A DNA stretch of 64,000 nucleotides from Poseidonia sp. (GTDB taxonomy: Archaea > Thermoplasmatota > Poseidoniia > Poseidoniales > Poseidoniaceae): NCBI GenBank assembly GCA_030741355.1, contig JASLVM010000001.1:10874-74873 (forward strand), written 5' to 3'. Numbering within the stretch: the stretch's first letter is position 1; every line of letters begins with the position of its first letter. Below the pieces are notes generated by a model. The model had not been told where the DNA came from and did not search any database. It worked only from the letters and a program-made list of their open reading frames with translations. Of this stretch, positions 43,385-55,704 are shown piece by piece. A program made the translations under genes and the position numbers.

Positions 43385-44062
43385 ATGGTCAACCAACTCG
43401 CTGCAGCCGCAGGCATGGGTGTTTACGTCGTACTGGTGTTGTGGGCGACGAAAATTCCCTACACGATGATGGTCGATCGGGGCATGGAACACATCCGAGC
43501 CGTCTATTACAACCGGAAAATCGTCCACATGTTCGCCGGCGGCGTGGGTTCACTGAGCGTCCCGTTCTTGTTCACCAGCCCCGTGTATCCACTGGTGTGC
43601 GGCGTTCTTCTGACGACGATGCTCTACGCTTCACATCGAGCGGGCATCGTGATGCATTGGTTTCAAACCGAACAAAATCAAAACGATGTCAAATTTGGAC
43701 TGATGTGGTGGATGTCAATCTCGCTCATTTGGTGGCTTGTTGACGACCCTTGGCTGGCGATCGTGCCCTCGTTATTCATGGCCTTCGGCGATGGCATCAC
43801 CGGTGTGGTACGCAACGCAGTGGTCCAAAAACGGTCAAAGAGCCCTATCGGGAACGTGTTCATGTTCTTGGTCAGCGCTCCTTTGGGATGGTACGCCGCC
43901 AAAGCGGGCGACCCGAGCCTCCCCGCTTGGGGCCTCATCGCAGCAACGGTGGCCACCTTTGTTGAACGCTACGAGTTCGGACCCATCGACGATAACATCC
44001 TGATCACCGTCTGTGCCACCGCCGTGCTGTTGCTTGGCGTTCAAATCGGGCCGCTCATGTAA
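43385..44062 (+). CDS. Polytopic membrane protein, polyprenol/dolichol/phytol-kinase-like (CTP-transferase family 1); tentative
   Basis: About 6 TM helices. AFGDGITGVVRN resembles the GDG(L/I)A..VG motif of phytol/dolichol kinases. 225 aa. Confidence 0.35.
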   Translation: MVNQLAAAAGMGVYVVLVLWATKIPYTMMVDRGMEHIRAVYYNRKIVHMFAGGVGSLSVPFLFTSPVYPLVCGVLLTTMLYASHRAGIVMHWFQTEQNQNDVKFGLMWWMSISLIWWLVDDPWLAIVPSLFMAFGDGITGVVRNAVVQKRSKSPIGNVFMFLVSAPLGWYAAKAGDPSLPAWGLIAATVATFVERYEFGPIDDNILITVCATAVLLLGVQIGPLM

Positions 44063-44079
44063 GGCAGGCCGTGGTGTAT

Positions 44080-44424
44080 TCACTGTCCGATGAGCTTGTA
44101 ATCATCACTGAGCGGTGTGGCACCGGTTTCAACGTGAATGATTTTTCCGTCTTTGTAGCGGTAAAAGGCAAGCACAGCCTCAGAGTTTGAACCGTTGGAA
44201 AAGTGTGCGATGGAATGCCCGATGCCGACTTCATCGTTCTCAAACAAGATGCGGTGAGACTCGGTACGAACCATTCCTGTACCAGCAAAGGCCATGATGT
44301 CGCCCTTGGTCATGACAGCACCACCCACATGGGGGTAGAACTTGCAATCATCGTGAATGATGGCGTCAAGTTGTTCTTTATTTCCGGATTCAAAGGCTTC
44401 TTCGTACTTGGCAAGAATGCTCAT
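44080..44424 (-). CDS. Small NTF2/SnoaL-like fold protein (tentative)
   Basis: About 114 aa from ATG 44424. LAKYEEAFESGNKEQLDAIIHDDCKF... and the alpha+beta pattern are typical of SnoaL-like proteins. Confidence 0.35.
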   Translation of the reverse strand: MSILAKYEEAFESGNKEQLDAIIHDDCKFYPHVGGAVMTKGDIMAFAGTGMVRTESHRILFENDEVGIGHSIAHFSNGSNSEAVLAFYRYKDGKIIHVETGATPLSDDYKLIGQ

Positions 44425-44527
44425 GGAGCGTGTGCAGCGACCAAACCTCATAATCACTCCCTCCAGTAATCATGAAAGGAAAACGAGCGACAGGAACCTT
44501 TGAGTTCCGTATCCTTGAGGTCAAACC

Positions 44528-45508
44528 ATGAGAATTCATTGCTTGGGTGGCGGCTTGGTGGGTTCTTTTGTCACCCGAAAACTCCACGAAGCAGGGTTTG
44601 AGGTCCATCTCTACGACATCGTTGAGCGGACAACACCGGCGTATTTCCACCTTGAAGACGCCACAAAGGCCGACCACAGTCTCGCCGATCTTCTCGTGAA
44701 CATGGTGCCCGGCTCGATCGGACACGCCGTGCTGAAGAACCTCCATCAAAAGGGACACCGCATCGTTGACCTCTCGTTCAGTGAGACCACGCCAGACCAA
44801 CTTCCCGATGGCCCCGGCGTGGTGTTGTGGGATGTAGGTATTGCTCCGGGGCTCTCGAACATGCTGGTGGCCTTGGCGCATCGTGAATTGGGTCATCTTG
44901 ACAAGGTGAGCATCAAGGTCGGAGGAAACCCCTCCCAACCCGATGAGGCGTGGTCCTACATGGCCCCGTTCTCCCCGCACGACGTCATCGCCGAGTACAC
45001 GCGCCCGGCGCGAATTGTACGAGACGGTTCCATCGCCGTCGTACCTGCCATGGAAAACCTCCACACCATCGATGCCAGCGGACGGGTCATGGAAGCCTTC
45101 TTGACCGATGGATTACGCTCCCTTATCGACATCCCAGCGACCTCGATGGGCGAGTACACGGTGCGTTGGCCGGGCCACATTCAACGGTATCAAACCTCAG
45201 AACTCAATCCCGATGAACTCGTTGACGCTTGGCGATTTGACCCGAAGCGACCTGAATTTACGTGGATGGAGGTTCGCGTAGAAGCTGGCACCGAGACTCG
45301 TATTTGGACGGTTGAAGATAAAGGGAGCGATGGCGATTCGAGCATGGCGAGAACCACCGGATTGGTCACCGTAGCCTGCGTGATGGCTTGGAGCCAAAAC
45401 GACCTTTTCTCCTCAGGGATTCATCCCCCAGAAGAGTTGCCCAGCGAAGTGATTCATGAGGTCATTCGAACGTTAAAGGAACACGGTGTTTCCATCCAAG
45501 CCAACTGA
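44528..45508 (+). CDS. Saccharopine dehydrogenase-family NAD(P) oxidoreductase
   Basis: MRIHCLGGGLVGSFV Rossmann start, DVGIAPGLSNMLV, APFSPHDVIAEY and EAFLTDGLRSL are typical Sacchrp_dh motifs. Confidence 0.7.
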   Translation: MRIHCLGGGLVGSFVTRKLHEAGFEVHLYDIVERTTPAYFHLEDATKADHSLADLLVNMVPGSIGHAVLKNLHQKGHRIVDLSFSETTPDQLPDGPGVVLWDVGIAPGLSNMLVALAHRELGHLDKVSIKVGGNPSQPDEAWSYMAPFSPHDVIAEYTRPARIVRDGSIAVVPAMENLHTIDASGRVMEAFLTDGLRSLIDIPATSMGEYTVRWPGHIQRYQTSELNPDELVDAWRFDPKRPEFTWMEVRVEAGTETRIWTVEDKGSDGDSSMARTTGLVTVACVMAWSQNDLFSSGIHPPEELPSEVIHEVIRTLKEHGVSIQAN

Positions 45509-45530
45509 AGCATTGGTCGAATTTCCTTTC

Positions 45531-45803
45531 TCAAGCGCTTGAACAACTGCGGTTCGCCCTTGTGGGGTGATCCGGGCATGATTTGCAAAATTTGTTTTTC
45601 CTTTCGTGCTTCCCGCAACAGGTTTCTTTCACTTTTTTCTTCGAACGCTCACAAGGTGTTGCGCACCCGGTTTGGCAGCGGTTTTCGGCAAGTTCAACCA
45701 CCGACTTTGAGGAGTTGAACACGTTGTCAATTTGCACACCACAGTAAGGACAGGCGACCCAGCCTGTTTGCATCATCATGTCGCAATTGTTGCACGTGTA
45801 CAT
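45531..45803 (-). CDS. Small Cys-rich protein (N-terminal zinc-ribbon CxxC...CxxC plus C-terminal Cys cluster)
   Basis: 90 aa with 13 Cys by hand count. YTCNNCDMMMQTGWVACPYCG, then CQTGCATPC and CCGKHERKNKFCKSCPDHP. Lies 32 nt downstream of the 891-aa membrane enzyme gene. Confidence 0.45.
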   Translation of the reverse strand: MYTCNNCDMMMQTGWVACPYCGVQIDNVFNSSKSVVELAENRCQTGCATPCERSKKKVKETCCGKHERKNKFCKSCPDHPTRANRSCSSA

Positions 45804-45835
45804 TCCGCCACCATACCCCTGTAGTTTCGTGCACC

Positions 45836-48511
45836 CTAAATAGTTTCGTAGGCCCTAAACTTCTCGTCTTCCAGTTGGACCCTCGTTCCAAACATGCGCC
45901 GGAGTCCTTCGGTTTCATGCGTGATTCGAAACCATCCCATTGCGAGAAGTGCAAAGCACATTTGCGCTGAGGCGAAGAGCATGTTGTAGGTGAGAGAAAA
46001 CACCAACCTTGGATAGATGGGGGTGTAAGCATAAAGGGCAAGGCAACCAAAGACAATCAATCCCTGCGACACGACATAAGGTCGCAAATCAAGGCCCTCG
46101 ACCATCAACCGATGCATCAAGGCAACCGACATCATCAGCAGCGGACTCACCACCATGATCGTCATCCAAATGGTCGAAGGCTGAGCCCCTCCCCCGAAGT
46201 ATCCTCCTTGCACCTTCACCAAACCGGGGTCGAGTTCTCGGGGATGGGGGCAGATGCCCTCGTAGCAGAATTGAACACCGTTGACCTGACCCATGAGTGT
46301 CCACCACAGGATCCAAACAACCCACGGCAACACCATCCAAGCCAGCATTGCTTGCGGTTGCTGGCGCCAATTCATGGATTGGCGTTTTGGAATGCGTAAT
46401 CCCTCCACCACCGCAGGCAGAGAGAGGAGCAGGGCCAAACCAGCGACGGTCGCCCACGGGCCCCAAGACACCATCATGTGGAGCGCCAATCCGGCGTGAA
46501 GCAGCAGCTTTCGAGAGGTTGGGTTGAGATTGGTCGCCAATCCCGCACCACCGTACAATACCAGAATGCCCAGGAGTACAATCTGCTGCAACCAGAGCCA
46601 TTCGATTCGAGAGAGGGCAAAGGCAGAACCAAGGAAAACAAAACACCAGATGGCATGGGTGCGCCCGTGTTGTCTTTGTGAAACAAGACCAAAAAACACT
46701 GAAAACAGAACCAGCATAACCGTAACAACAACAGCGCTCAGCACACTGGTGGGCGCCATGTTGACAAGTTTGAGCAGGTGATGGTCACCCAAAATCCTCC
46801 GATGGACATAGGAAAGAGACAGGACAAGCAGACACCAGATGGCCCAGACCGAAACACGTTCGTGGTGAGGGCGGCGTTGAGCCGTTTTCTCAAGGGCCAA
46901 ACCGGTCACCAGCAAAAACATCGGAAGCAGGGCATACCAGAGGCGTAGGGAGCCCAGTAGCAAAGAGACCAAAACAGCGAGCAAGTGAACGGTCTTCGAA
47001 GAGGGCGCATGCTGCTTTGCTTGCCCGGTCATGGCACCCACGGACCAAAAAACAACCCAAGCCAAAAGCAACACGAGCAGGCCTCTTGAGAGGTCAAAAA
47101 AGAACAGAGAGAGCATCAACAACCCCAACAGCCAAGGAAGCGGTTTGAAGAAGTTCGAAGTCCCTTTCAAAGCAAGCGGCGGAGCTCTTCCCAACGATGA
47201 AGCGACGAGCCAAACAACCCCGCCGGCTCCGATGGCCCTCGGAATCATTGCAGAGAACGAAAGATGTCCGTGGAACCAAACCGACGCCACCACGATGCCA
47301 CCGAGCAAGAGCAAGTGTTGTTGTTCCTTTTTGGTCGTCGAACGCCCTTGTTGAAGCCATTTGTAAGCCAGCAAGAAGGCTGCTGAGAGAACGGCGATGG
47401 AAATGAACACGTCCAACGGACGGATTGACACAGGGTCGCCCTCGATGCCTTGCCAGTTGATCTCCGCTACTCGATAGATTTCGGCATCTTCTGGATGGAA
47501 GAAAACATGTCGATGCAAGGCCGCTTCCCAATTCCAAGCCTCAACCTTGTCGCGGTCATCAAGGGAAATGCTGAGCAAGGACAAGGGAACTCGTCCGTGA
47601 ACTTGGCTTGGGAAATCAAGGCCCAAATCATACAACATCAAGGCTGCGAGGTCAAGTTGAGCCGCATCCGCACGGGCACTGGCGTCAATCCCCGGGCCGG
47701 AAACGAGTGCGAGGACATTTCGCGTGTCCGCTTCGGCCGAGCCGTGAGAACCCGAAGCCGTCATGCCGTGGTCAGCCGTGACGACGACCGTCCAGTTTGC
47801 GGGTACAAAGCGCAGTAAGCTCGAGAGATGTTGGTCCATATCCAGCATTTTGTTTCGATACTCCTCCGAAACCGTACCCCATTTGTGGCCAACTTTGTCG
47901 GGCCCCGAAAAGTGTGCGGCGATGACATTGTGTCGTCCATCGACCAACCATTCCTCAAGGATGGCTCCAGTGGCACGGTCGCCCTCATAGTAATCTGCAT
48001 GGCCCTCAAAGGTGTTGACGAACTCAATGCTGGGGGAGTCGCCGTACATGTTGCCCATGACGTAGCTGCCGATCATCCCTACCGAATGCTGTTCTGATGC
48101 TGCTGCCAGTAACCATGGGTCAAAACCACCCGGGTGGCCCATGTTGAAATTTTTCAATCCGTCAATCGGGGCATTTGGAACCCCCGTCATCATCTCCCGT
48201 ACGCACGTGGCCGAGAGGGTCAACGGCCCTGTTGTCACGGATAAGACGGCTTGTTCATCCAACCGGTCAACCAATTTCGGCATCATGGTTGAATCGCGCA
48301 TGATGTTTTCTCCAACGCCGTCCAGCACCACCAAAAGGTACCCTTCAGGTTGAGGCACGAGGTCTTCTGGAAACGGCACCACCTCCTCCGGTTGGTCCGG
48401 TTCAAGGAGAACGTAAGGGGCCGTGATGGTTATCGGGGCGAGTGACAACATCACCAGAATGAGGAGCCAACGCCTGAGCAGGCTGTTGGGGGAATCGGGG
48501 CTTTCCTGCAC
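45836..48511 (-). CDS. Alkaline-phosphatase-superfamily (phosphodiesterase/phosphotransferase-type) ectodomain followed by about 15 TM helices; GPI ethanolamine-phosphate-transferase-like architecture
   Basis: GTG start. N-terminal TM. LLVVLDGVG (metal Asp), TGPLTLSATCVREMMTG (nucleophile region), VVVTADHGMTASGSHGS (DHGM...HG). About 520 aa of hydrophobic helices follow. Confidence 0.65.
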   Translation of the reverse strand: MQESPDSPNSLLRRWLLILVMLSLAPITITAPYVLLEPDQPEEVVPFPEDLVPQPEGYLLVVLDGVGENIMRDSTMMPKLVDRLDEQAVLSVTTGPLTLSATCVREMMTGVPNAPIDGLKNFNMGHPGGFDPWLLAAASEQHSVGMIGSYVMGNMYGDSPSIEFVNTFEGHADYYEGDRATGAILEEWLVDGRHNVIAAHFSGPDKVGHKWGTVSEEYRNKMLDMDQHLSSLLRFVPANWTVVVTADHGMTASGSHGSAEADTRNVLALVSGPGIDASARADAAQLDLAALMLYDLGLDFPSQVHGRVPLSLLSISLDDRDKVEAWNWEAALHRHVFFHPEDAEIYRVAEINWQGIEGDPVSIRPLDVFISIAVLSAAFLLAYKWLQQGRSTTKKEQQHLLLLGGIVVASVWFHGHLSFSAMIPRAIGAGGVVWLVASSLGRAPPLALKGTSNFFKPLPWLLGLLMLSLFFFDLSRGLLVLLLAWVVFWSVGAMTGQAKQHAPSSKTVHLLAVLVSLLLGSLRLWYALLPMFLLVTGLALEKTAQRRPHHERVSVWAIWCLLVLSLSYVHRRILGDHHLLKLVNMAPTSVLSAVVVTVMLVLFSVFFGLVSQRQHGRTHAIWCFVFLGSAFALSRIEWLWLQQIVLLGILVLYGGAGLATNLNPTSRKLLLHAGLALHMMVSWGPWATVAGLALLLSLPAVVEGLRIPKRQSMNWRQQPQAMLAWMVLPWVVWILWWTLMGQVNGVQFCYEGICPHPRELDPGLVKVQGGYFGGGAQPSTIWMTIMVVSPLLMMSVALMHRLMVEGLDLRPYVVSQGLIVFGCLALYAYTPIYPRLVFSLTYNMLFASAQMCFALLAMGWFRITHETEGLRRMFGTRVQLEDEKFRAYETI

Positions 48512-48544
48512 GTCGTTGCCCCCCTTCTAATTTTAGGGGAGACG

Positions 48545-48558
48545 AAATATCATATATG
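48545..48558 (+). promoter_or_regulatory. TATA-like element in the divergent region upstream of phnD
   Basis: aaatatcatatatg lies about 35-45 nt upstream of ATG 48591. An aaggggat SD-like site sits at 48578..48585. Confidence 0.3.
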
Positions 48559-48590
48559 GGCTTCGGGTCCCGTGGTTAAGGGGATACGAA

Positions 48591-49844
48591 ATGAACCGTC
48601 GATTAATTGCCATCATGTTGATGACCACCTTGCTTGCAGCCACCGTTCCGGGATGCTTATTTTCCTCGGACACCAATTATACCACATGCTCGGACGACGA
48701 CAACTGTCTCAAGATCGCTTTTGAAGTGAAGGAAGAGTACCAAAACACGGATGAAAACCCCCAAAAACTCGGTGACCGACTTGGCGAACTCATGGGTCAA
48801 GAGGTGGAGATTTACCCGGTCAACAGCCAGGCTGCCACCATTGAAGCCCTTCGATTTGGCAACGCTGACATCGGCTTCCTCGATGGCGGCGCTGCATGGT
48901 TGAGTTGGAACGAGTACGGGCTCGAAGTCGCAGCTGCAGAGCAAAAGGCTGACGGCCGTGCCTACTACCATGCGGTTGCCTGGGTCCACAAGGACTCCGA
49001 CATGGCGCAAGCCAGCATGAACGGCGACGTGGACCAAGCCCTCACGCTGATGGAAGGCAAAATCTCCTGCCACACCTCTGCCCTTGGAAGTTCAGGCATG
49101 TTGTTGCCCATGGGCTACCTCATCAACAACAGTTACATGGAAGTCGTTGGCGACAAGGACGAGATTGATTCCCTCCACGACACGGTGACCAACCACTTCT
49201 CAGAGGATTCGAGCATCCCCGACAGCGGCTCGCCATACTACCGCTACATCGGTTCACTGCGCTGCTTGGCCGAACACGCCCTTGGCGACGCCACCGATTA
49301 CATCTCCTTCGCGAAGGACCCCACCGTCCCCGATTATTGCGGCGACGACCCTCAAGACTGGTGCTTCGAGGGCGACTTCGCCTCCACCGAAGATTTCTAC
49401 CCCATCGGAGGCTACGACGCGGAAACCGGTGAAATCAACACCCCCTTCGGCAAAGCCCCCAGCCATCCCGTCATGTACAACCCCGATTTCTTCACGGCTG
49501 CGGAAGTGCAATCGCTTCGAGACGCTTTCACCACGATGAGCAGCAACGATGCTGACCTGGAGATCCTCGATGACGTGCTCAGCACGCCAGGCATGACCAT
49601 CATCGACACGGAATCCCACCTCGGGAGCTACGGTGACGCCATCGGAGACGTCCCCGGCATCAACGCCTACTTTGGTGATAAAATCAACAAGGTGAAGGTC
49701 ACCTCAAGCGACGACGGCCTGCCGCTTTACGTACCAATCCTCGTGGTCGGTGCCATCGGTGTGGCGGTCTATGTCATTCGAAACCGCAGCGAGGAAACCC
49801 AAACCGTTCCTTCCGAAACCACCACACCCTCTTCCGAGGAGTAA
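48591..49844 (+). CDS. phnD: Phosphonate/phosphite/phosphate-type ABC substrate-binding protein (PhnD family), lipobox-like N-terminus and C-terminal TM anchor
   Basis: LKIAFEV..., QAATIEALRFGNADIGFLDGGAAWL and YYHAVAWVHKDS (PhnD-like). VPGC near the N-terminus. C-terminal LPLYVPILVVGAIGVAVYVIRNR. Confidence 0.7.
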   Translation: MNRRLIAIMLMTTLLAATVPGCLFSSDTNYTTCSDDDNCLKIAFEVKEEYQNTDENPQKLGDRLGELMGQEVEIYPVNSQAATIEALRFGNADIGFLDGGAAWLSWNEYGLEVAAAEQKADGRAYYHAVAWVHKDSDMAQASMNGDVDQALTLMEGKISCHTSALGSSGMLLPMGYLINNSYMEVVGDKDEIDSLHDTVTNHFSEDSSIPDSGSPYYRYIGSLRCLAEHALGDATDYISFAKDPTVPDYCGDDPQDWCFEGDFASTEDFYPIGGYDAETGEINTPFGKAPSHPVMYNPDFFTAAEVQSLRDAFTTMSSNDADLEILDDVLSTPGMTIIDTESHLGSYGDAIGDVPGINAYFGDKINKVKVTSSDDGLPLYVPILVVGAIGVAVYVIRNRSEETQTVPSETTTPSSEE

Positions 49845-49850
49845 TCGTTG

Positions 49851-51065
49851 ATGGCGCGTTCGAACAGCCTCTGTTTGTTCTTGGTTGTCCTCTTGACCGC
49901 CGCTCCCCTTTCGGGTTGCCTCGGCGGAGATGAGGTGGAGCAGGACAGCGGTTTTGAGTGGGGCAATCGAAGCCAACCCGCCTGCGACCCGGTGGATTTG
50001 AACATCACCTGTAAAGAATATCTGAGCGGATTCACGACGCCCACCAATTCACTTCATCATCCCACCGAAGACGAAGTATGGTTCTCTGACCTTGACGGAC
50101 GTATCCTGGCGTACAACGGCCAAAGCACTCGCCTTGTTGGCAACATCAGCAACCTTGTTTCCAACTGCCACACGGAAGCAGGGCTGCTTGGTTTTGCGTT
50201 CGTATCCAACTTTGAAGAGAACCCACAGATTTTGTTCACCTACATCGGAACGGCCAACTGTGAAACCAAAGAAGTTACCAATTTGTTCTTGGCGGCCGGA
50301 GATGTGGTCAACGGTTCCCTGGATGAATCTTCAATTCACACGCTTCGGGAAATCGAACAAACTTACCGTAACCACAACGGCGGCCATCTCCTTGCCCTGG
50401 GGAATCACACCTATCTGTGGGGCGTGGGCGATGGTGGCGGCTCTAACGACCCGTTGGGCCACGGCCAAAACAACACCTCCTCCTTGGGTACCATCCAACA
50501 TTTCCACTACCTCAACGGCACCTTGATGCCACTGCACAACACCACGGGAACCGTCCAGGATTACACCCTTCATCGCGGGCTACGAAACCCATGGAAGTTT
50601 GATGTTGATGCCCAAGACAGATTGTGGATCGCTGACGTTGGTCAGAATTGTTTCGAAGAGATCAACCTCGTGCCCGTTCTCCAATCCAGCAATTTTGGTT
50701 GGGCCGACCGTGAAGCCAACCGCGAATTCAACGACCCGAGCGATTGCACGGCGCCACCGTCCACACCTCCGGAGGGAATGACGGATCCGGTGGTCGTCTA
50801 CACCCACGAGGAAGGCCGATGCTCAATCACCGGTGGCCTGTACATGGACTGGGGCCCAGAACCTTGGCAGGGCGGCTACATGTACGGGGATTTTTGCAGC
50901 GGAGATGTATGGATCACCAAAGATGCAGGCAACGGTGTCTGGGAAGGTGAACACCTCCTCGATACCGACAATCTGCTGGTTGGTTTCGGCCGTGGTTTGA
51001 ATGATGAATTGCTCTTGTTCACCTGGGGCGGCACGGTGTTTGAACTCGACATCTACACCCAGTGA
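49851..51065 (+). CDS. PQQ-dependent sugar (glucose/sorbosone) dehydrogenase-family beta-propeller, lipobox N-terminus
   Basis: HNGGHLLALG, GDGGGSNDPLGHGQN, GLRNPWKFDVD and DVGQNCFEEIN. LSGC lipobox. ORF opens on TTG 49848; ATG at 49851. Confidence 0.75.
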   Translation: MARSNSLCLFLVVLLTAAPLSGCLGGDEVEQDSGFEWGNRSQPACDPVDLNITCKEYLSGFTTPTNSLHHPTEDEVWFSDLDGRILAYNGQSTRLVGNISNLVSNCHTEAGLLGFAFVSNFEENPQILFTYIGTANCETKEVTNLFLAAGDVVNGSLDESSIHTLREIEQTYRNHNGGHLLALGNHTYLWGVGDGGGSNDPLGHGQNNTSSLGTIQHFHYLNGTLMPLHNTTGTVQDYTLHRGLRNPWKFDVDAQDRLWIADVGQNCFEEINLVPVLQSSNFGWADREANREFNDPSDCTAPPSTPPEGMTDPVVVYTHEEGRCSITGGLYMDWGPEPWQGGYMYGDFCSGDVWITKDAGNGVWEGEHLLDTDNLLVGFGRGLNDELLLFTWGGTVFELDIYTQ

Positions 51066-51077
51066 ACGACAACGAGT

Positions 51078-51467
51078 TTACTTGCCGATGCAAGCGAATA
51101 TCGCTGCACGAGCGTGAGGTTCCAACCGGGGCTCGATGTGTTTGGGTTTGGCACCGGGTCCGATGATGCCGAGACCGATCTTCTTGTTGTGCTTGAGTTG
51201 AAGTTCAAGGATGGTTTTGATGACCGCTTGACCCATGGCCAGGCCGTGTTGGGTTTCGCCCTTCTCAATGATGCCGAGACAAGCCGCAGCGTCGTGGTCG
51301 GCGAGCAATCGGTCAAGGGCCAACGGGACTTCCATTGAACCGGGGACCCACACCACTTCACCGATGGTCAAACCGTGTTGCTCCGCCTCATCCTTGGCGA
51401 AGTCGAGCATGCGAGAAACCTCTTCTCTGTGAAAGGAACCGCAGACCAAGCCAATTTGTTTGCTCAT
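51078..51467 (-). CDS. ribH: 6,7-dimethyl-8-ribityllumazine synthase
   Basis: VVWVPGSMEVPLAL and GIIEKGETQHGLAMGQAV resemble lumazine synthase motifs. 129 aa. The ATG overlaps the ribE stop (ATGA). Confidence 0.65.
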   Translation of the reverse strand: MSKQIGLVCGSFHREEVSRMLDFAKDEAEQHGLTIGEVVWVPGSMEVPLALDRLLADHDAAACLGIIEKGETQHGLAMGQAVIKTILELQLKHNKKIGLGIIGPGAKPKHIEPRLEPHARAAIFACIGK

Positions 51468-54676: not shown

Positions 54677-54705
54677 CCAACGAAGGGGCGAAGTTGACGA
54701 TTGAT

Positions 54706-55704
54706 ATGGCGCACATCGCAGTGTTGGGATTGGGAAATTGGGGGACAGCCATCGCCCGTTTGTGGCTCTTGGAAGGCCACAAGGTCAAGGGCTGGACCAT
54801 TGAGCAGGAAGTCTACGAATCCATCACCATGAACGAAGTGAACGAGAAATACCTCCCGGACCACCCCGTCCCTGGATTGGATGTCACCATGCACCTCAGT
54901 GAGGCCATAGAGGGCAGTGAAATCATCGTCCTGGCCGTCCCTTCATCGGTCATTCTCGATGTCATGGAAGACGTGCTCCCTCACCTTCAGGCCGGCCATG
55001 TTCTGCTCGATTTGGCCAAAGGGTTGGCCCCCGGTAAACGGCTGATCTCCGAGGCCATCCACACACGACTCAAGGAAGAGGGAAAGACCAACCCCTTGGC
55101 GGTGTTGACTGGACCCACCATCGCCCCCGAAGCAGCAGGTGGGGTCATGACCACGGCCTTGGTGGCAAGCGAAGACCAAGCCATCGCCCAGCGCCTTGCT
55201 CAGACCTTGAGCACACCAAGTTTCATCCTCCATCCTGCCAGCGACCCGGTAGGGGCTGAACTTTGGGGGGCTTACAAGAACGTGGTCGCCCTTGCTTGCG
55301 GCCTTGTTGACGGCCTGAAGCAGGTTGGGGACTTGGGAGGAGACAACCTCAAAGCGGCGATTTTCATGTCTGGATTCAAAGAAGGATGCCTGTTGCTGGC
55401 GGAACTTGGAGCACGAGCAGAAGTGGCATTTGGACCGGCGGGCTTGGGCGACATGTACGTGACCGCCACATCACCTCACGGACGAAACAGGTCCATGGGG
55501 GAAAAACTCGGAACGGGTTTGACGTTGGACGACGCGTTGGATGAAATGCACATGGTTGCAGAAGGTGTTCGCGCCTGTCGCATGTTCGTCGAACGAGCAG
55601 AGGATGCGAACCTCAACATCCCCTTCACCAAAGCCCTGAACACGCTGTTGAACGGCGATATCGATGCAGAGGAATGCTGCAGAAGAATGGTTGCGCTCGG
55701 TTGA
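54706..55704 (+). CDS. gpsA: NAD(P)H-dependent sn-glycerol-3-phosphate dehydrogenase
   Basis: IAVLGLGNWGTAIARLW (Rossmann), GPTIAPEAA, KNVVALACGLVDG and MVAEGV are typical GpsA motifs. ORF opens on TTG 54694; ATG at 54706. Confidence 0.85.
   Translation: MAHIAVLGLGNWGTAIARLWLLEGHKVKGWTIEQEVYESITMNEVNEKYLPDHPVPGLDVTMHLSEAIEGSEIIVLAVPSSVILDVMEDVLPHLQAGHVLLDLAKGLAPGKRLISEAIHTRLKEEGKTNPLAVLTGPTIAPEAAGGVMTTALVASEDQAIAQRLAQTLSTPSFILHPASDPVGAELWGAYKNVVALACGLVDGLKQVGDLGGDNLKAAIFMSGFKEGCLLLAELGARAEVAFGPAGLGDMYVTATSPHGRNRSMGEKLGTGLTLDDALDEMHMVAEGVRACRMFVERAEDANLNIPFTKALNTLLNGDIDAEECCRRMVALG

What the first reader, a model, noticed from the sequence alone, without database searches (positions are those of the whole stretch)
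45836..48511. Eukaryote-style GPI ethanolamine-phosphate-transferase architecture in an archaeal genome
Seen: the protein has an N-terminal TM. It then has an extracytoplasmic alkaline-phosphatase-superfamily domain of about 330 aa with LLVVLDGVG (metal-binding Asp), TGPLTLSATCVREMMTG (Thr nucleophile region) and VVVTADHGMTASGSHGS (DHGM...HG). About 15 hydrophobic helices follow.

Established knowledge: catalytic domain first and multi-TM domain second is the layout of the eukaryotic PIG-N, PIG-O and PIG-G enzymes (yeast Mcd4, Gpi13, Gpi7). The motifs DPPT.T..R.K.LTTG and GDHGM...G.HGG, as I recall them, line up with those seen here. Bacterial EptA/MCR-1-type phosphoethanolamine transferases have the opposite order and a sulfatase-type domain.

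Inference: the enzyme transfers a phospho-headgroup (phosphoethanolamine or similar) onto a glycolipid, glycan or lipid-anchored protein on the outer face of the archaeal membrane. That is relevant to old proposals of GPI-like anchoring in archaea.
Basis: partly seen in the sequence, partly recalled or inferred. Interest (0 to 1): 0.6.

Follow-up and report, generated by a model that had tools for sequence, protein, structure and literature searches.

The report
Archaeal GPI-transferase-like membrane enzyme
A Marine Group II archaeon encodes an uncharacterised membrane enzyme whose catalytic domain, predicted to face outward, is a real relative of the eukaryotic enzymes that add phosphoethanolamine to GPI anchors, but many bacteria share the layout, its membrane half matches nothing known, and the genome shows no GPI pathway.

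Summary
ORF 45836-48511 (-) encodes an 891-aa protein with one N-terminal TM helix, a ~310-aa alkaline-phosphatase-superfamily domain carrying every motif quoted, and 15-17 further helices.

- **Catalytic domain:** in profile-profile tests against real yeast Mcd4 (PIG-N class) and Gpi7 (PIG-G/O class) it scores 138 and 102. Classical NPPs score 78, and Mcd4 against Gpi7 scores 105.
- **Tree:** NPPs separate at 100/100 from a group holding Mcd4, Gpi7, an animal PIG-O and this family.
- **Closest relatives:** these are uncharacterised prokaryotic proteins with the same layout (score ~280), many from Polyangia bacteria. The layout is therefore not eukaryote-specific, and the deep branching is unresolved.
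- **Membrane half:** it matches no Pfam family, no PDB fold and neither GPI-transferase membrane domain. Mcd4 and Gpi7 also fail to match each other there.
- **GPI pathway:** PigN, PIG-L, PIG-A, PIG-F and C13 transamidase were not found in the 88.7%-complete genome.

The full-length family is confined to Poseidoniales, is patchily distributed, and here lies in a ~7.5-kb presence/absence block.

It is most likely a phospho-headgroup transferase that decorates a surface glycan or glycolipid. The scan had already noted homologues on other DNA.

The parts
45836..48511 (-). Whole gene: 891-aa membrane-embedded alkaline-phosphatase-superfamily enzyme (P0001).
   Evidence: ORF list and translation. 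There are 174 same-length homologues. All full-length genome matches are in Candidatus Poseidoniales.
48407..48490 (-). N-terminal transmembrane helix (residues 8-35), preceded by RR.
   Evidence: AF2 helix 8-35, hydropathy peak, coordinates checked.
47477..48406 (-). Catalytic alkaline-phosphatase-fold domain (residues ~36-345), predicted to lie outside the cytoplasm.
   Evidence: PF01663 and PF01676. Foldseek matches ENPP7 and Xac NPP at probability 1.00. hhalign gives Mcd4 E 4e-19, Gpi7 E 8e-14 and NPP E 7e-10.
48311..48337 (-). LLVVLDGVG: metal-ligand Asp64.
   Evidence: D64 is invariant in 30 sequences and aligns with the D of Gpi7 VIIDALR.
48182..48232 (-). TGPLTLSATCVREMMTG: nucleophile motif. 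Ser100 is the predicted nucleophile, and Thr98 is also invariant.
   Evidence: S100 aligns with the second T of Gpi7 PPTVT and with the Thr of the PPITIP motif in an archaeal NPP. I take that Thr to be the NPP nucleophile by analogy with Xac NPP T90. T94, G95, P96, T98 and S100 are invariant.
47876..47914 (-). HFSGPDKVGHKWG: metal ligands Asp205 and His209.
   Evidence: Both are invariant. The motif aligns with Gpi7 HYLGLDHIGH and with Xac NPP HVDEAGH.
47738..47779 (-). TADHGMTASGSHGS: Asp247 and His248, plus His256 only 8 residues later. NPPs have a ~100-residue insert here.
   Evidence: The residues are invariant. The short DHG-x5-G-x-HG spacing is shared with Mcd4, Gpi7, an animal PIG-O and almost all of the ~80 prokaryotic relatives. 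In Xac NPP the matching GSHG lies ~100 residues downstream.
45902..47434 (-). Polytopic membrane domain (residues ~360-870, 15-17 helices). It is family-specific.
   Evidence: AF2 helices. No Pfam match in any of 30 members. No credible PDB fold match. No hhalign signal to Mcd4, Gpi7 or prokaryotic groups A and B above reversed controls.
46223..46327 (-). Most conserved stretch of the membrane half, PWVVWILWWTLMGQVNGVQFCYEGICPHPRELDPG. It is a loop with a beta-hairpin and two invariant Cys (C749, C754), probably on the outer face.
   Evidence: Run of invariant columns W730-G763. AF2 strands at 747-749 and 752-754 lie between helices 719-739 and 780-804. The loop's side of the membrane is inferred from charge distribution only.
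45531..45803 (-). Small Cys-rich zinc-ribbon ORF (90 aa), 32 nt downstream on the same strand. It is a lineage-specific neighbour, not a family-wide partner.
   Evidence: Zn_ribbon_3 match at E 2.5e-5, just below the Pfam cut-off. It is present next to the target only in close relatives and absent in distant loci L002-L004.
48591..51065 (+). Transferrin-like binding protein (48591-49844) and GSDH-like beta-propeller (49848-51065). These are the most persistent neighbours and part of the same ~7.5-kb presence/absence block.
   Evidence: Pfam. Best PDB matches are lactoferrin at 3e-15 and PQQ glucose dehydrogenase at 3e-8. Both lie near the target in 23 of 30 long loci. The block is missing from same-genus genomes G006, G008 and G014; PyrRedox/ThiF were seen beyond the gap only in G008.

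Best explanation
The gene encodes a membrane-embedded two-metal phosphotransferase of the alkaline-phosphatase superfamily. It belongs to the same catalytic-domain lineage as the eukaryotic GPI ethanolamine-phosphate transferases, and it is a member of a Poseidoniales-specific family with its own membrane domain.

**Proposed mechanism (inferred)**
- The catalytic domain sits on the outer face, tethered between TM1 and the 15-17-helix domain.
- The membrane domain presents a membrane phospholipid.
- Ser100 is activated by the metal held by D64, D247 and H248. It attacks the phosphodiester and forms a covalent phospho-headgroup enzyme.
- The second metal (D205, H209, H256) stabilises the leaving lipid alkoxide.
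- The headgroup then passes to a hydroxyl of a surface acceptor: an N-glycan, a glycolipid or lipoglycan, or a polysaccharide. The headgroup could be phosphoethanolamine or another phospho-alcohol.

The enzyme works as a stand-alone, dispensable surface-decoration enzyme, not as a step of a GPI pathway.

**Shown:** the architecture, the intact active site, the catalytic-domain kinship and the accessory distribution.

**Inferred:** the topology, transferase rather than hydrolase chemistry, and the identity of donor and acceptor.
For: **Active site.** It is complete and invariant. It aligns residue for residue with Gpi7, Mcd4 and NPP metal and nucleophile positions.

**Catalytic-domain kinship (hhalign scores):**
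- Prokaryotic same-layout groups A and B: 280 and 279.
- Mcd4: 138. Gpi7: 102. NPP: 78.
- Mcd4 against Gpi7: 105.

**Careful tree:** NPPs are separated from all others at 100/100. MGII plus its paralogues form a clade at 98/99.

**Positive control.** The archaeal profile pulled a true animal PIG-O-class protein (PF19316) out of 1.84 billion representatives at E 9e-22.

**Membrane domain.** About 510 residues of it are strongly conserved, with invariant polar, aromatic and Cys residues. That argues it does more than anchor the protein.

**Analogy (established knowledge).** The characterised enzymes I know that join an alkaline-phosphatase-fold domain to a polytopic domain move a phospholipid headgroup onto an envelope acceptor. 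Examples are PIG-N/O/G, EptA/MCR-1, LtaS and OpgB; PbgA/YejM, which lacks the full metal site, is the exception.

**Possible donors and acceptors.** The genome encodes a phosphatidylserine decarboxylase and an archaetidylinositol-phosphate-synthase-like enzyme, so candidate donor lipids exist. It also encodes AglB/STT3, so N-glycan acceptors exist.

**Distribution.** It is patchy: 43 of 151 genomes in the order and 6 of 20 in the genus. The gene lies in an indel block. Both fit a variable surface-modification trait.
Against: - There is no biochemical evidence for any member of this family or of the prokaryotic groups A and B.
- Donor and acceptor are unknown.
- The membrane domain has no detectable relative, so the lipid-presenting role is argued by analogy only.
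- Gene context gives no glycan or lipid-synthesis partner. The persistent neighbours are a transferrin-like binding protein and a GSDH-like propeller, which point towards uptake or redox functions rather than glycan decoration.
- Sequence alone cannot tell a transferase from a hydrolase.
- Topology is predicted, not shown.
Confidence: 0.55

Rival explanations
1. It is a membrane-tethered hydrolase (a phosphodiesterase, phosphomonoesterase or lipid phosphodiesterase). It would release phosphate or a phospho-compound from dissolved or particulate organic matter, or from the cell's own lipids. This would be part of an accessory nutrient-acquisition block, together with the neighbouring binding protein and ABC transporter.
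For: - The Pfam and PDB matches are to phosphodiesterases and alkaline phosphatases such as ENPP7, NPP, PhoK and PafA.
- The neighbouring binding protein matches phosphate/phosphonate binding-protein families, though below their cut-offs. ABC transporter parts are nearby.
- The gene is an accessory trait with patchy distribution, as is common for nutrient-scavenging genes in marine microbes.
- In family f1 it co-occurs with GSDH: 11 of 11 genomes that have the orthologue, against 2 of 64 that lack it.
Against: - The catalytic domain is closer to the GPI transferases than to NPP hydrolases.
- A scavenging hydrolase does not need a conserved 510-residue, 15-helix domain.
- The binding protein's best structural relatives are transferrins (3e-15), and Fea1-like genes lie nearby in relatives. 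That suggests iron rather than phosphorus.
- Neighbours are far better conserved than the target, and the association is lost around divergent orthologues and paralogues. That is the pattern expected of synteny.
- In family f3, GSDH is common without the target.
Confidence: 0.25
2. It is a true functional counterpart of PIG-N/O/G. It would add phosphoethanolamine to a GPI-like glycolipid that anchors proteins to the archaeal membrane.
For: - Same order of parts and same catalytic lineage as Mcd4 and Gpi7.
- The genome has an archaetidylinositol-phosphate-synthase-like gene (below the family cut-off) and a phosphatidylserine decarboxylase. Inositol and ethanolamine lipids may therefore exist.
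Against: - PigN, PIG-L, PIG-A, PIG-F and C13 transamidase were not found in the 88.7%-complete genome. GT22 was also silent, but it was silent in the control genomes too, so that result says nothing.
- The membrane half lacks PF04987 and PF19316.
- The family is not the closest prokaryotic group to the eukaryotic enzymes. Group B scores 228 against Gpi7 and 180 against Mcd4, compared with 102 and 138 for this family.
- The gene is dispensable within its own genus.
Confidence: 0.05
3. It is a catalytically silent sensor or scaffold, like PbgA/YejM, which keeps the alkaline-phosphatase fold joined to a membrane domain but acts as a lipid-binding regulator.
For: Foldseek lists the YejM periplasmic domain among the matches (6vat, E 5e-3).
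Against: All seven metal and nucleophile positions are invariant across 30 diverse members. As I recall it, YejM lacks the full metal site. The order of parts is also the reverse of YejM's.
Confidence: 0.03

Closest known systems
Eukaryotic GPI ethanolamine-phosphate transferases 2 and 3 (PIG-G/Gpi7 and PIG-O/Gpi13; PF01663 + PF19316)
   Same: - One N-terminal TM, then a lumenal or external alkaline-phosphatase-fold domain, then a large polytopic domain.
- The catalytic domains align over 262 columns (probability 98.1, E 8e-14).
- The P-x-T-x-[ST]...TG, H-x-x-G-x-D-x-x-GH and DHGM-x3-G-x-HG motifs match.
- Both fall in the same tree partition, apart from NPPs, at 100/100.
   Different: - There is no PF19316 match and no profile signal in the membrane half.
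- No PIG-F-like partner was found.
- The predicted nucleophile is Ser rather than Thr.
- There is no GPI pathway in the genome.
- Identity is only ~21% in the catalytic domain.
Eukaryotic GPI ethanolamine-phosphate transferase 1 (PIG-N/Mcd4; PF01663 + PF00884 + PF04987)
   Same: - Same order of parts.
- This is the strongest eukaryotic match, but only over the second half of the catalytic domain: 131 columns, 31% identity, probability 99.1, E 4e-19.
- The match includes ADHGM-x3-GSHG.
   Different: - Mcd4's nucleophile region (PTESRPGH) did not align; from memory it looks sulfatase/EptA-like.
- There is no PF04987 match in the membrane half.
Uncharacterised prokaryotic groups A and B (for example HVU04594.1, 'alkaline phosphatase family protein', Polyangiaceae bacterium)
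   Same: - These are the closest relatives of the catalytic domain: hhalign E ~1e-40 over 275-289 columns.
- They share the layout of N-terminal TM, DHG-x5-G-x-HG and 7-16 C-terminal hydrophobic segments.
   Different: - Their membrane halves are related to each other (probability 97.7) but not detectably to this family's (probability 0.2).
- Group B, and the one named group A member, are bacterial: Polyangia, Acidobacteriota, Dehalococcoidia and others.
- They are equally uncharacterised.
Bacterial phosphoethanolamine transferases EptA/LptA/MCR-1
   Same: By established knowledge, these also join an alkaline-phosphatase-superfamily domain to a membrane domain. They use a Thr-phospho-enzyme intermediate with phosphatidylethanolamine as donor. 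This is what the archaeal enzyme probably works like.
   Different: - The order of parts is reversed: five TM helices come first and the catalytic domain last.
- The domain is sulfatase-type. PF00884 matches the query only at E 0.11, below its cut-off.
- EptA was not among the top structural matches.
Nucleotide pyrophosphatases/phosphodiesterases (ENPP1-7, Xac NPP)
   Same: - These are the best solved-structure matches: ENPP7 at Foldseek E 3e-4 and profile E 4.6e-9.
- They share the two-metal site.
   Different: - NPPs carry a ~100-residue insert between DHG and the last His ligand and have no polytopic domain.
- They are separated at 100/100 in the tree.
- True Gpi7 and Mcd4 also hit only ENPPs in the PDB, so this resemblance reflects what has been crystallised.

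Membership tests
Alkaline phosphatase superfamily, PF01663 (Phosphodiest) branch | Pfam PF01663 match above the gathering cut-off | tested here: met
   E 1.8e-11, 44.7 bits against a cut-off of 23. All 30 family members match.
Alkaline phosphatase superfamily, PF01663 (Phosphodiest) branch | Complete two-metal site plus Ser/Thr nucleophile (Asp, Ser/Thr, Asp-x3-His, Asp-His, His) | tested here: met
   D64, S100 (and T98), D205, H209, D247, H248 and H256 are invariant. They align to NPP and Gpi7 positions.
Alkaline phosphatase superfamily, PF01663 (Phosphodiest) branch | Alkaline-phosphatase alpha/beta fold | tested here: met
   AF2 model with pLDDT 83. Foldseek probability 1.00 to ENPP7 and Xac NPP, TM-score ~0.5 normalised to the target.
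GPI ethanolamine-phosphate transferases (PIG-N/Mcd4, PIG-O/Gpi13, PIG-G/Gpi7) | Order of parts: N-terminal TM, lumenal or external catalytic domain, C-terminal polytopic domain | tested here: met
   The feature is not exclusive: about 80 prokaryotic proteins share it.
GPI ethanolamine-phosphate transferases (PIG-N/Mcd4, PIG-O/Gpi13, PIG-G/Gpi7) | Catalytic domain closer to GPI-EtP transferases than to other PF01663 members | tested here: met
   hhalign scores are 138 (Mcd4) and 102 (Gpi7) against 78 (NPP); Mcd4 against Gpi7 scores 105. NPPs split off at 100/100. The eukaryotic sample was yeasts plus one animal only.
GPI ethanolamine-phosphate transferases (PIG-N/Mcd4, PIG-O/Gpi13, PIG-G/Gpi7) | Short DHGM-x3-G-x-HG spacing of the last three metal ligands | tested here: met
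   P0001 has TADHGMTASGSHG, Gpi7 GDHGMNELGNHG, Mcd4 ADHGMSAFGSHG and animal PIG-O GDHGMTASGDHG.
GPI ethanolamine-phosphate transferases (PIG-N/Mcd4, PIG-O/Gpi13, PIG-G/Gpi7) | Membrane domain of family PF04987 (PigN) or PF19316 (PIGO_PIGG) | tested here: not met
   There is no hit in the query or in any of 30 members at E up to 1. hhalign probability is at most 0.6%, equal to reversed controls. Caveat: Mcd4 against Gpi7 also shows no signal, so sequence methods have little power here. A fold comparison was not possible.
GPI ethanolamine-phosphate transferases (PIG-N/Mcd4, PIG-O/Gpi13, PIG-G/Gpi7) | Genomic co-occurrence with the rest of the GPI pathway (PIG-A, PIG-L, mannosyltransferases, PIG-F, transamidase) | tested here: not met
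   PF08288, PF02585, PF06699, PF01650 and PF04987 gave no match in the 88.7%-complete genome. PF03901 was also silent, but its control genomes were silent too, so it is uninformative.
GPI ethanolamine-phosphate transferases (PIG-N/Mcd4, PIG-O/Gpi13, PIG-G/Gpi7) | Transfers phosphoethanolamine from phosphatidylethanolamine to a GPI mannose | not testable with these tools
   This needs biochemistry.
EptA/LptA/MCR-1 phosphoethanolamine transferases | N-terminal five-helix domain followed by a C-terminal sulfatase-type (PF00884) catalytic domain | tested here: not met
   The order is reversed. PF00884 matches only at E 0.11 and 12.3 bits, below its cut-off of 25.
Nucleotide pyrophosphatase/phosphodiesterase (NPP/ENPP) | Soluble or single-pass enzyme with a long insert between DHG and the last His ligand, grouping with NPPs in phylogeny | tested here: not met
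   The spacing is 8 residues rather than ~100. A polytopic domain is present. The family is separated from NPPs at 100/100.

The most novel reading that the evidence does not exclude
The uncharacterised prokaryotic radiation to which this gene belongs (Poseidoniales, Polyangia and others) may be the stock from which the eukaryotic GPI ethanolamine-phosphate transferases arose. In that case the Poseidoniales enzyme would add a phospho-headgroup to a lipid-linked glycan that tethers surface proteins. That would be an archaeal functional analogue of GPI anchoring, built with a different membrane module and without the canonical pathway.
Probability: 0.07. Interest if true: 0.85.

Novelty: new variant of a known kind. 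Interest (0 to 1): 0.45.

Why it matters
GPI ethanolamine-phosphate transferases are treated as a eukaryotic invention. I found no paper on prokaryotic relatives in three full-text searches.

The data here show a large, unstudied prokaryotic set of enzymes with the same layout and the same catalytic lineage. One branch is confined to Marine Group II archaea, which are among the most abundant uncultured archaea of the surface ocean.

If the enzyme decorates the cell surface with a phospho-headgroup, it would be a first handle on the envelope chemistry of these organisms. It would also mark a strain-variable surface trait.

The set as a whole gives a concrete way to test where the eukaryotic GPI-modifying enzymes came from. 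The catalytic domain looks like a module that has been joined to at least five unrelated membrane domains.

The finding does not support GPI anchoring in archaea.

Tried and rejected
1. **Membrane-half homology by sequence.** I tried a local HMM of residues 360-870 against about 80 same-layout proteins (no hit). I also ran hhalign on membrane halves with reversed controls (no signal). Power is low, because Mcd4 against Gpi7 fails too.
2. **A false BLAST link.** A hit seemed to tie the animal PIG-O-class protein P0233 to the MGII membrane cluster. It was an artefact: P0233 has a duplicated catalytic segment that my cut left in the C-terminal piece.
3. **Solved structures.** Neither the PDB sequence searches nor Foldseek found a GPI-EtP transferase or any membrane-domain relative. 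BetP-type hits had probability of at most 0.41 and TM-score ~0.1, so I rejected them.
4. **The small Cys-rich ORF as a partner.** It is conserved only in close relatives.
5. **Operon with the binding protein, GSDH and ABC genes.** Most of the shared context is regional synteny. Co-occurrence with GSDH holds in family f1 but not in f3.
6. **Prokaryotic relatives of Gpi7/PIG-O.** A pattern scan of species genomes gave one hit, probably eukaryotic contamination. The Asgard comparison therefore remains undone.
7. **Origin of the nearest non-MGII relatives, P0218 and P0265.** It could not be established.
9. **Paralogue gene context.** It gave no functional hint.

Full report
**1. Observation**

The minus-strand ORF 45836-48511 encodes an 891-aa protein, P0001, with a GTG start.

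An AlphaFold2 model built on a 30-sequence family alignment is confident (pLDDT 83.4, pTM 0.81). It shows a helix at 8-35, an alpha/beta domain at about 59-340, and 15-17 helices from 365 to about 870. A hydropathy scan agrees.

Pfam gives PF01663 (Phosphodiest, E 1.8e-11) and PF01676, both above their cut-offs. Nothing matches the C-terminal 530 residues. NCBIfam gives only sub-threshold alkaline-phosphatase-type hits.

The gene has 174 same-length homologues. In the alignment D64, T98, S100, D205, H209, D247, H248 and H256 are invariant. So is a striking block in the membrane half, WWTLLGQVNGxQTCFEGICPHPRELDPG.

**2. Organism and distribution**

All full-length matches in species-representative genomes are in Candidatus Poseidoniales, that is Marine Group II, in both Poseidoniaceae and Thalassarchaeaceae. 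The one exception is two contigs labelled 'Verrucomicrobiales bacterium ARS100'. They are 96-97% identical and share the same neighbours, so they probably belong to a mislabelled bin.

Within the order the family is patchy: 43 of 151 genomes, and 6 of 20 in the same genus. There are at least two more divergent paralogous subfamilies of ~820-860 aa, and some genomes carry two or three copies. The window's genome (1.97 Mb, 88.7% complete) has only this one PF01663 gene.

**3. Is the catalytic domain specifically GPI-transferase-like?**

The PDB could not answer this. The family profile hits ENPP7 (4.6e-9), bacterial NPP, PhoK and iPGM over one ~70-residue segment. Foldseek hits ENPP7, NPP, 3lxq and YejM for the catalytic half only. 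However, genuine Gpi7/PIG-O and Mcd4 also hit only ENPPs, PafA or an arylsulfatase.

To get real eukaryotic sequences I used my recollection of yeast Mcd4 and Gpi7 as database bait only. The database returned entries 100% and 99% identical to the baits:
- P0275 carries PF04987, and its orthologues are named 'GPI ethanolamine phosphate transferase 1 / MCD4'.
- P0395 carries PF19316, and its orthologues are named 'transferase 2 / LAS21'.

Classical NPPs were taken from Thermoplasmatota genomes as an outgroup.

Matched hhalign comparisons of the catalytic domains:

| Comparison | Score | E-value |
|---|---|---|
| MGII vs Mcd4 | 138 | 4e-19 |
| MGII vs Gpi7 | 102 | 8e-14 |
| MGII vs NPP | 78 | 7e-10 |
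| Mcd4 vs Gpi7 | 105 | 5.5e-14 |
| Mcd4 vs NPP | 51 | |
| Gpi7 vs NPP | 69 | |

The archaeal domain is therefore as close to each GPI transferase class as those classes are to each other, and closer than to NPPs.

They place S100 on the second Thr of Gpi7 PPTVT and on the Thr of the PPITIP motif in an archaeal NPP, which I take to be the NPP nucleophile.

A careful IQ-TREE analysis (72 rows, 309 columns) gave these supports:
- NPPs split from all others at 100/100.
- Mcd4 is monophyletic at 100/100.
- Gpi7 plus P0233 group at 100/99.
- MGII plus its paralogues form a clade at 98/99.
- Deeper nodes are unresolved (55 or less).

P0233 was retrieved by the archaeal profile itself at E 9e-22. It is an animal (Cyprideis torosa) protein carrying PF19316, which makes it a useful internal positive control.

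**4. The layout is not eukaryote-specific**

The exhaustive profile search of 1.84 billion representatives gave 4203 hits. After the family and its paralogues comes a shell of about 80 proteins of 720-1000 aa.
- They match the whole catalytic domain at 75-123 bits.
- Most have an N-terminal TM, almost all have the short DHG-x5-G-x-HG motif, and they have 7-16 C-terminal hydrophobic segments.
- None of the ten I scanned has PF04987 or PF19316.
- By membrane-half similarity they fall into group A (49 proteins), group B (12) and singletons.

One group A member is annotated 'alkaline phosphatase family protein [Polyangiaceae bacterium]'. Group B relatives are mostly Polyangia/Myxococcota, with some in Acidobacteriota, Dehalococcoidia, Actinomycetota and Armatimonadota.

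These groups are the closest relatives of the MGII catalytic domain (scores 280 and 279, E ~1e-40). Group B is also the closest prokaryotic group to Gpi7 (228) and Mcd4 (180). The Poseidoniales family is thus one archaeal branch of a mainly bacterial radiation that shares a catalytic lineage with the eukaryotic enzymes. It is not their special sister.

**5. Membrane half**

There is no Pfam hit in any of the 30 members and no credible PDB fold. The family's membrane HMM gave no hit on the shell proteins. hhalign showed no signal to Mcd4, Gpi7, group A or group B above reversed-sequence controls. Only group A against group B is related, at probability 97.7%.

Mcd4 against Gpi7 also shows nothing, so the test has little power. 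Fold comparison with AlphaFold models of PIG-N/O/G is the missing decisive step, and it was not possible with the tools on hand.

**6. GPI pathway and possible substrates**

The genome gave no match to the following families:
- PigN
- PIG-L
- PIG-A
- PIG-F
- C13 transamidase

GT22 was silent as well, but its control genomes were silent too.

The genome does encode:
- a phosphatidylserine decarboxylase;
- a single CDP-alcohol transferase, most like archaetidylinositol-phosphate synthase but below that family's cut-off;
- AglB/STT3.

Ethanolamine or inositol lipids as donors and N-glycans as acceptors are therefore possible. Nothing points to GPI-like anchoring.

**7. Gene context**

The target is convergent with a saccharopine-dehydrogenase-like gene and divergent from a transferrin-like binding protein followed by a GSDH-like propeller.

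Across Poseidoniales loci of 12 kb or more where the target is at least 35% identical, the binding protein and GSDH are within 6 kb in 23 of 30. They are absent around the most divergent orthologues and all paralogues. The neighbours are much better conserved than the target.

Same-genus genomes G006, G008 and G014 lack the target and GSDH within 20 kb of the conserved flank. In G008, DHBP synthase is followed after about 1.5 kb by PyrRedox and ThiF. So a ~7.5-kb block is a presence/absence polymorphism. It holds the SacDH-like gene, the Cys-rich ORF, the target, the binding protein and GSDH.

In family f1, all 11 genomes with an orthologue also have this GSDH, against 2 of 64 without. In several of the 11 the two genes lie on different contigs. 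In family f3, GSDH is common without the target. This is suggestive but not independent of kinship.

The 90-aa Cys-rich zinc-ribbon ORF downstream is conserved only in close relatives.

**8. Verdict**

The protein is an intact two-metal phosphotransferase-type enzyme of the GPI-EtP-transferase-like lineage. It has a novel, strongly conserved membrane domain, is specific to Poseidoniales, and is dispensable.

The characterised enzymes I know that join this fold to a polytopic domain (PIG-N/O/G, EptA, LtaS, OpgB) move a phospholipid headgroup onto an envelope acceptor. By that analogy the most likely role is transfer of a phospho-headgroup onto a surface glycan or glycolipid (confidence 0.55). 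A membrane-bound hydrolase linked to nutrient acquisition is the main rival (0.25). A true GPI-like role is unlikely (0.05).

Earlier notes of this scan on homologues in other genomes reached similar conclusions. I tested their main claims independently here.

Noticed in passing
window 43500-51100: A ~7.5-kb block is missing from same-genus genomes G006, G008 and G014. It holds a SacDH-like gene, the Cys-rich ORF, the target, the transferrin-like binding protein and GSDH. In G008, DHBP synthase is followed after about 1.5 kb by PyrRedox and ThiF, so the block is an accessory presence/absence polymorphism.
   Followed up: partly
window 48591-49844 (+): A membrane-anchored binding protein matches Pfam Phosphonate-bd and Transferrin. 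Its best solved-structure relatives are lactoferrin and transferrin lobes (E 3e-15). In relatives a Fea1-like (algal iron-assimilation) gene lies next to it. It may be an archaeal transferrin-like iron-uptake component.
   Followed up: partly
window 49848-51065 (+): A GSDH-like (soluble PQQ glucose/sorbosone dehydrogenase) beta-propeller. In family f1 it is present in all 11 genomes that have the target orthologue and in 2 of 64 that lack it, sometimes on a different contig. In family f3 it is common without the target.
   Followed up: partly
window 45531-45803 (-): A 90-aa, 13-Cys zinc-ribbon ORF lies 32 nt downstream of the target on the same strand. It is conserved at 44-97% identity only in loci where the target is about 47% identical or more.
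   Followed up: partly
window 54694-55704 (+): A bacterial-type NAD-dependent glycerol-3-phosphate dehydrogenase (GpsA) in an archaeal genome. From memory, this trait has been reported before for Marine Group II.
   Followed up: no
L109 and L112 (NZEQ01000021.1, NZEQ01000030.1): Contigs deposited as 'Verrucomicrobiales bacterium isolate ARS100' carry this gene at 96-97% identity. Its Poseidoniales neighbours are there too, at 90-99% identity. The bin or its taxonomy label is probably wrong.
   Followed up: partly
G000:C42:5331-6149 (L191): The genome's only STT3/AglB match lies in an open frame of 3186 aa. That is far longer than usual for an archaeal oligosaccharyltransferase, so it may be a fusion with a giant surface protein.
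   Followed up: no
P0233 (CAG0886932.1, Cyprideis torosa): This animal PIG-O-class gene model contains a near-exact internal duplication of ~250 residues of the catalytic domain (about 165-420 repeated at 424-670). This is likely an assembly or annotation artefact.
   Followed up: partly
L193 (OZ220043.1, 'Stappiaceae bacterium ... chromosome: 92'): This was the only hit in prokaryotic species genomes to strict Gpi7/PIG-O peptide patterns (30% identity over residues 11-345). The record title suggests eukaryotic sequence inside a bacterial MAG.
   Followed up: no
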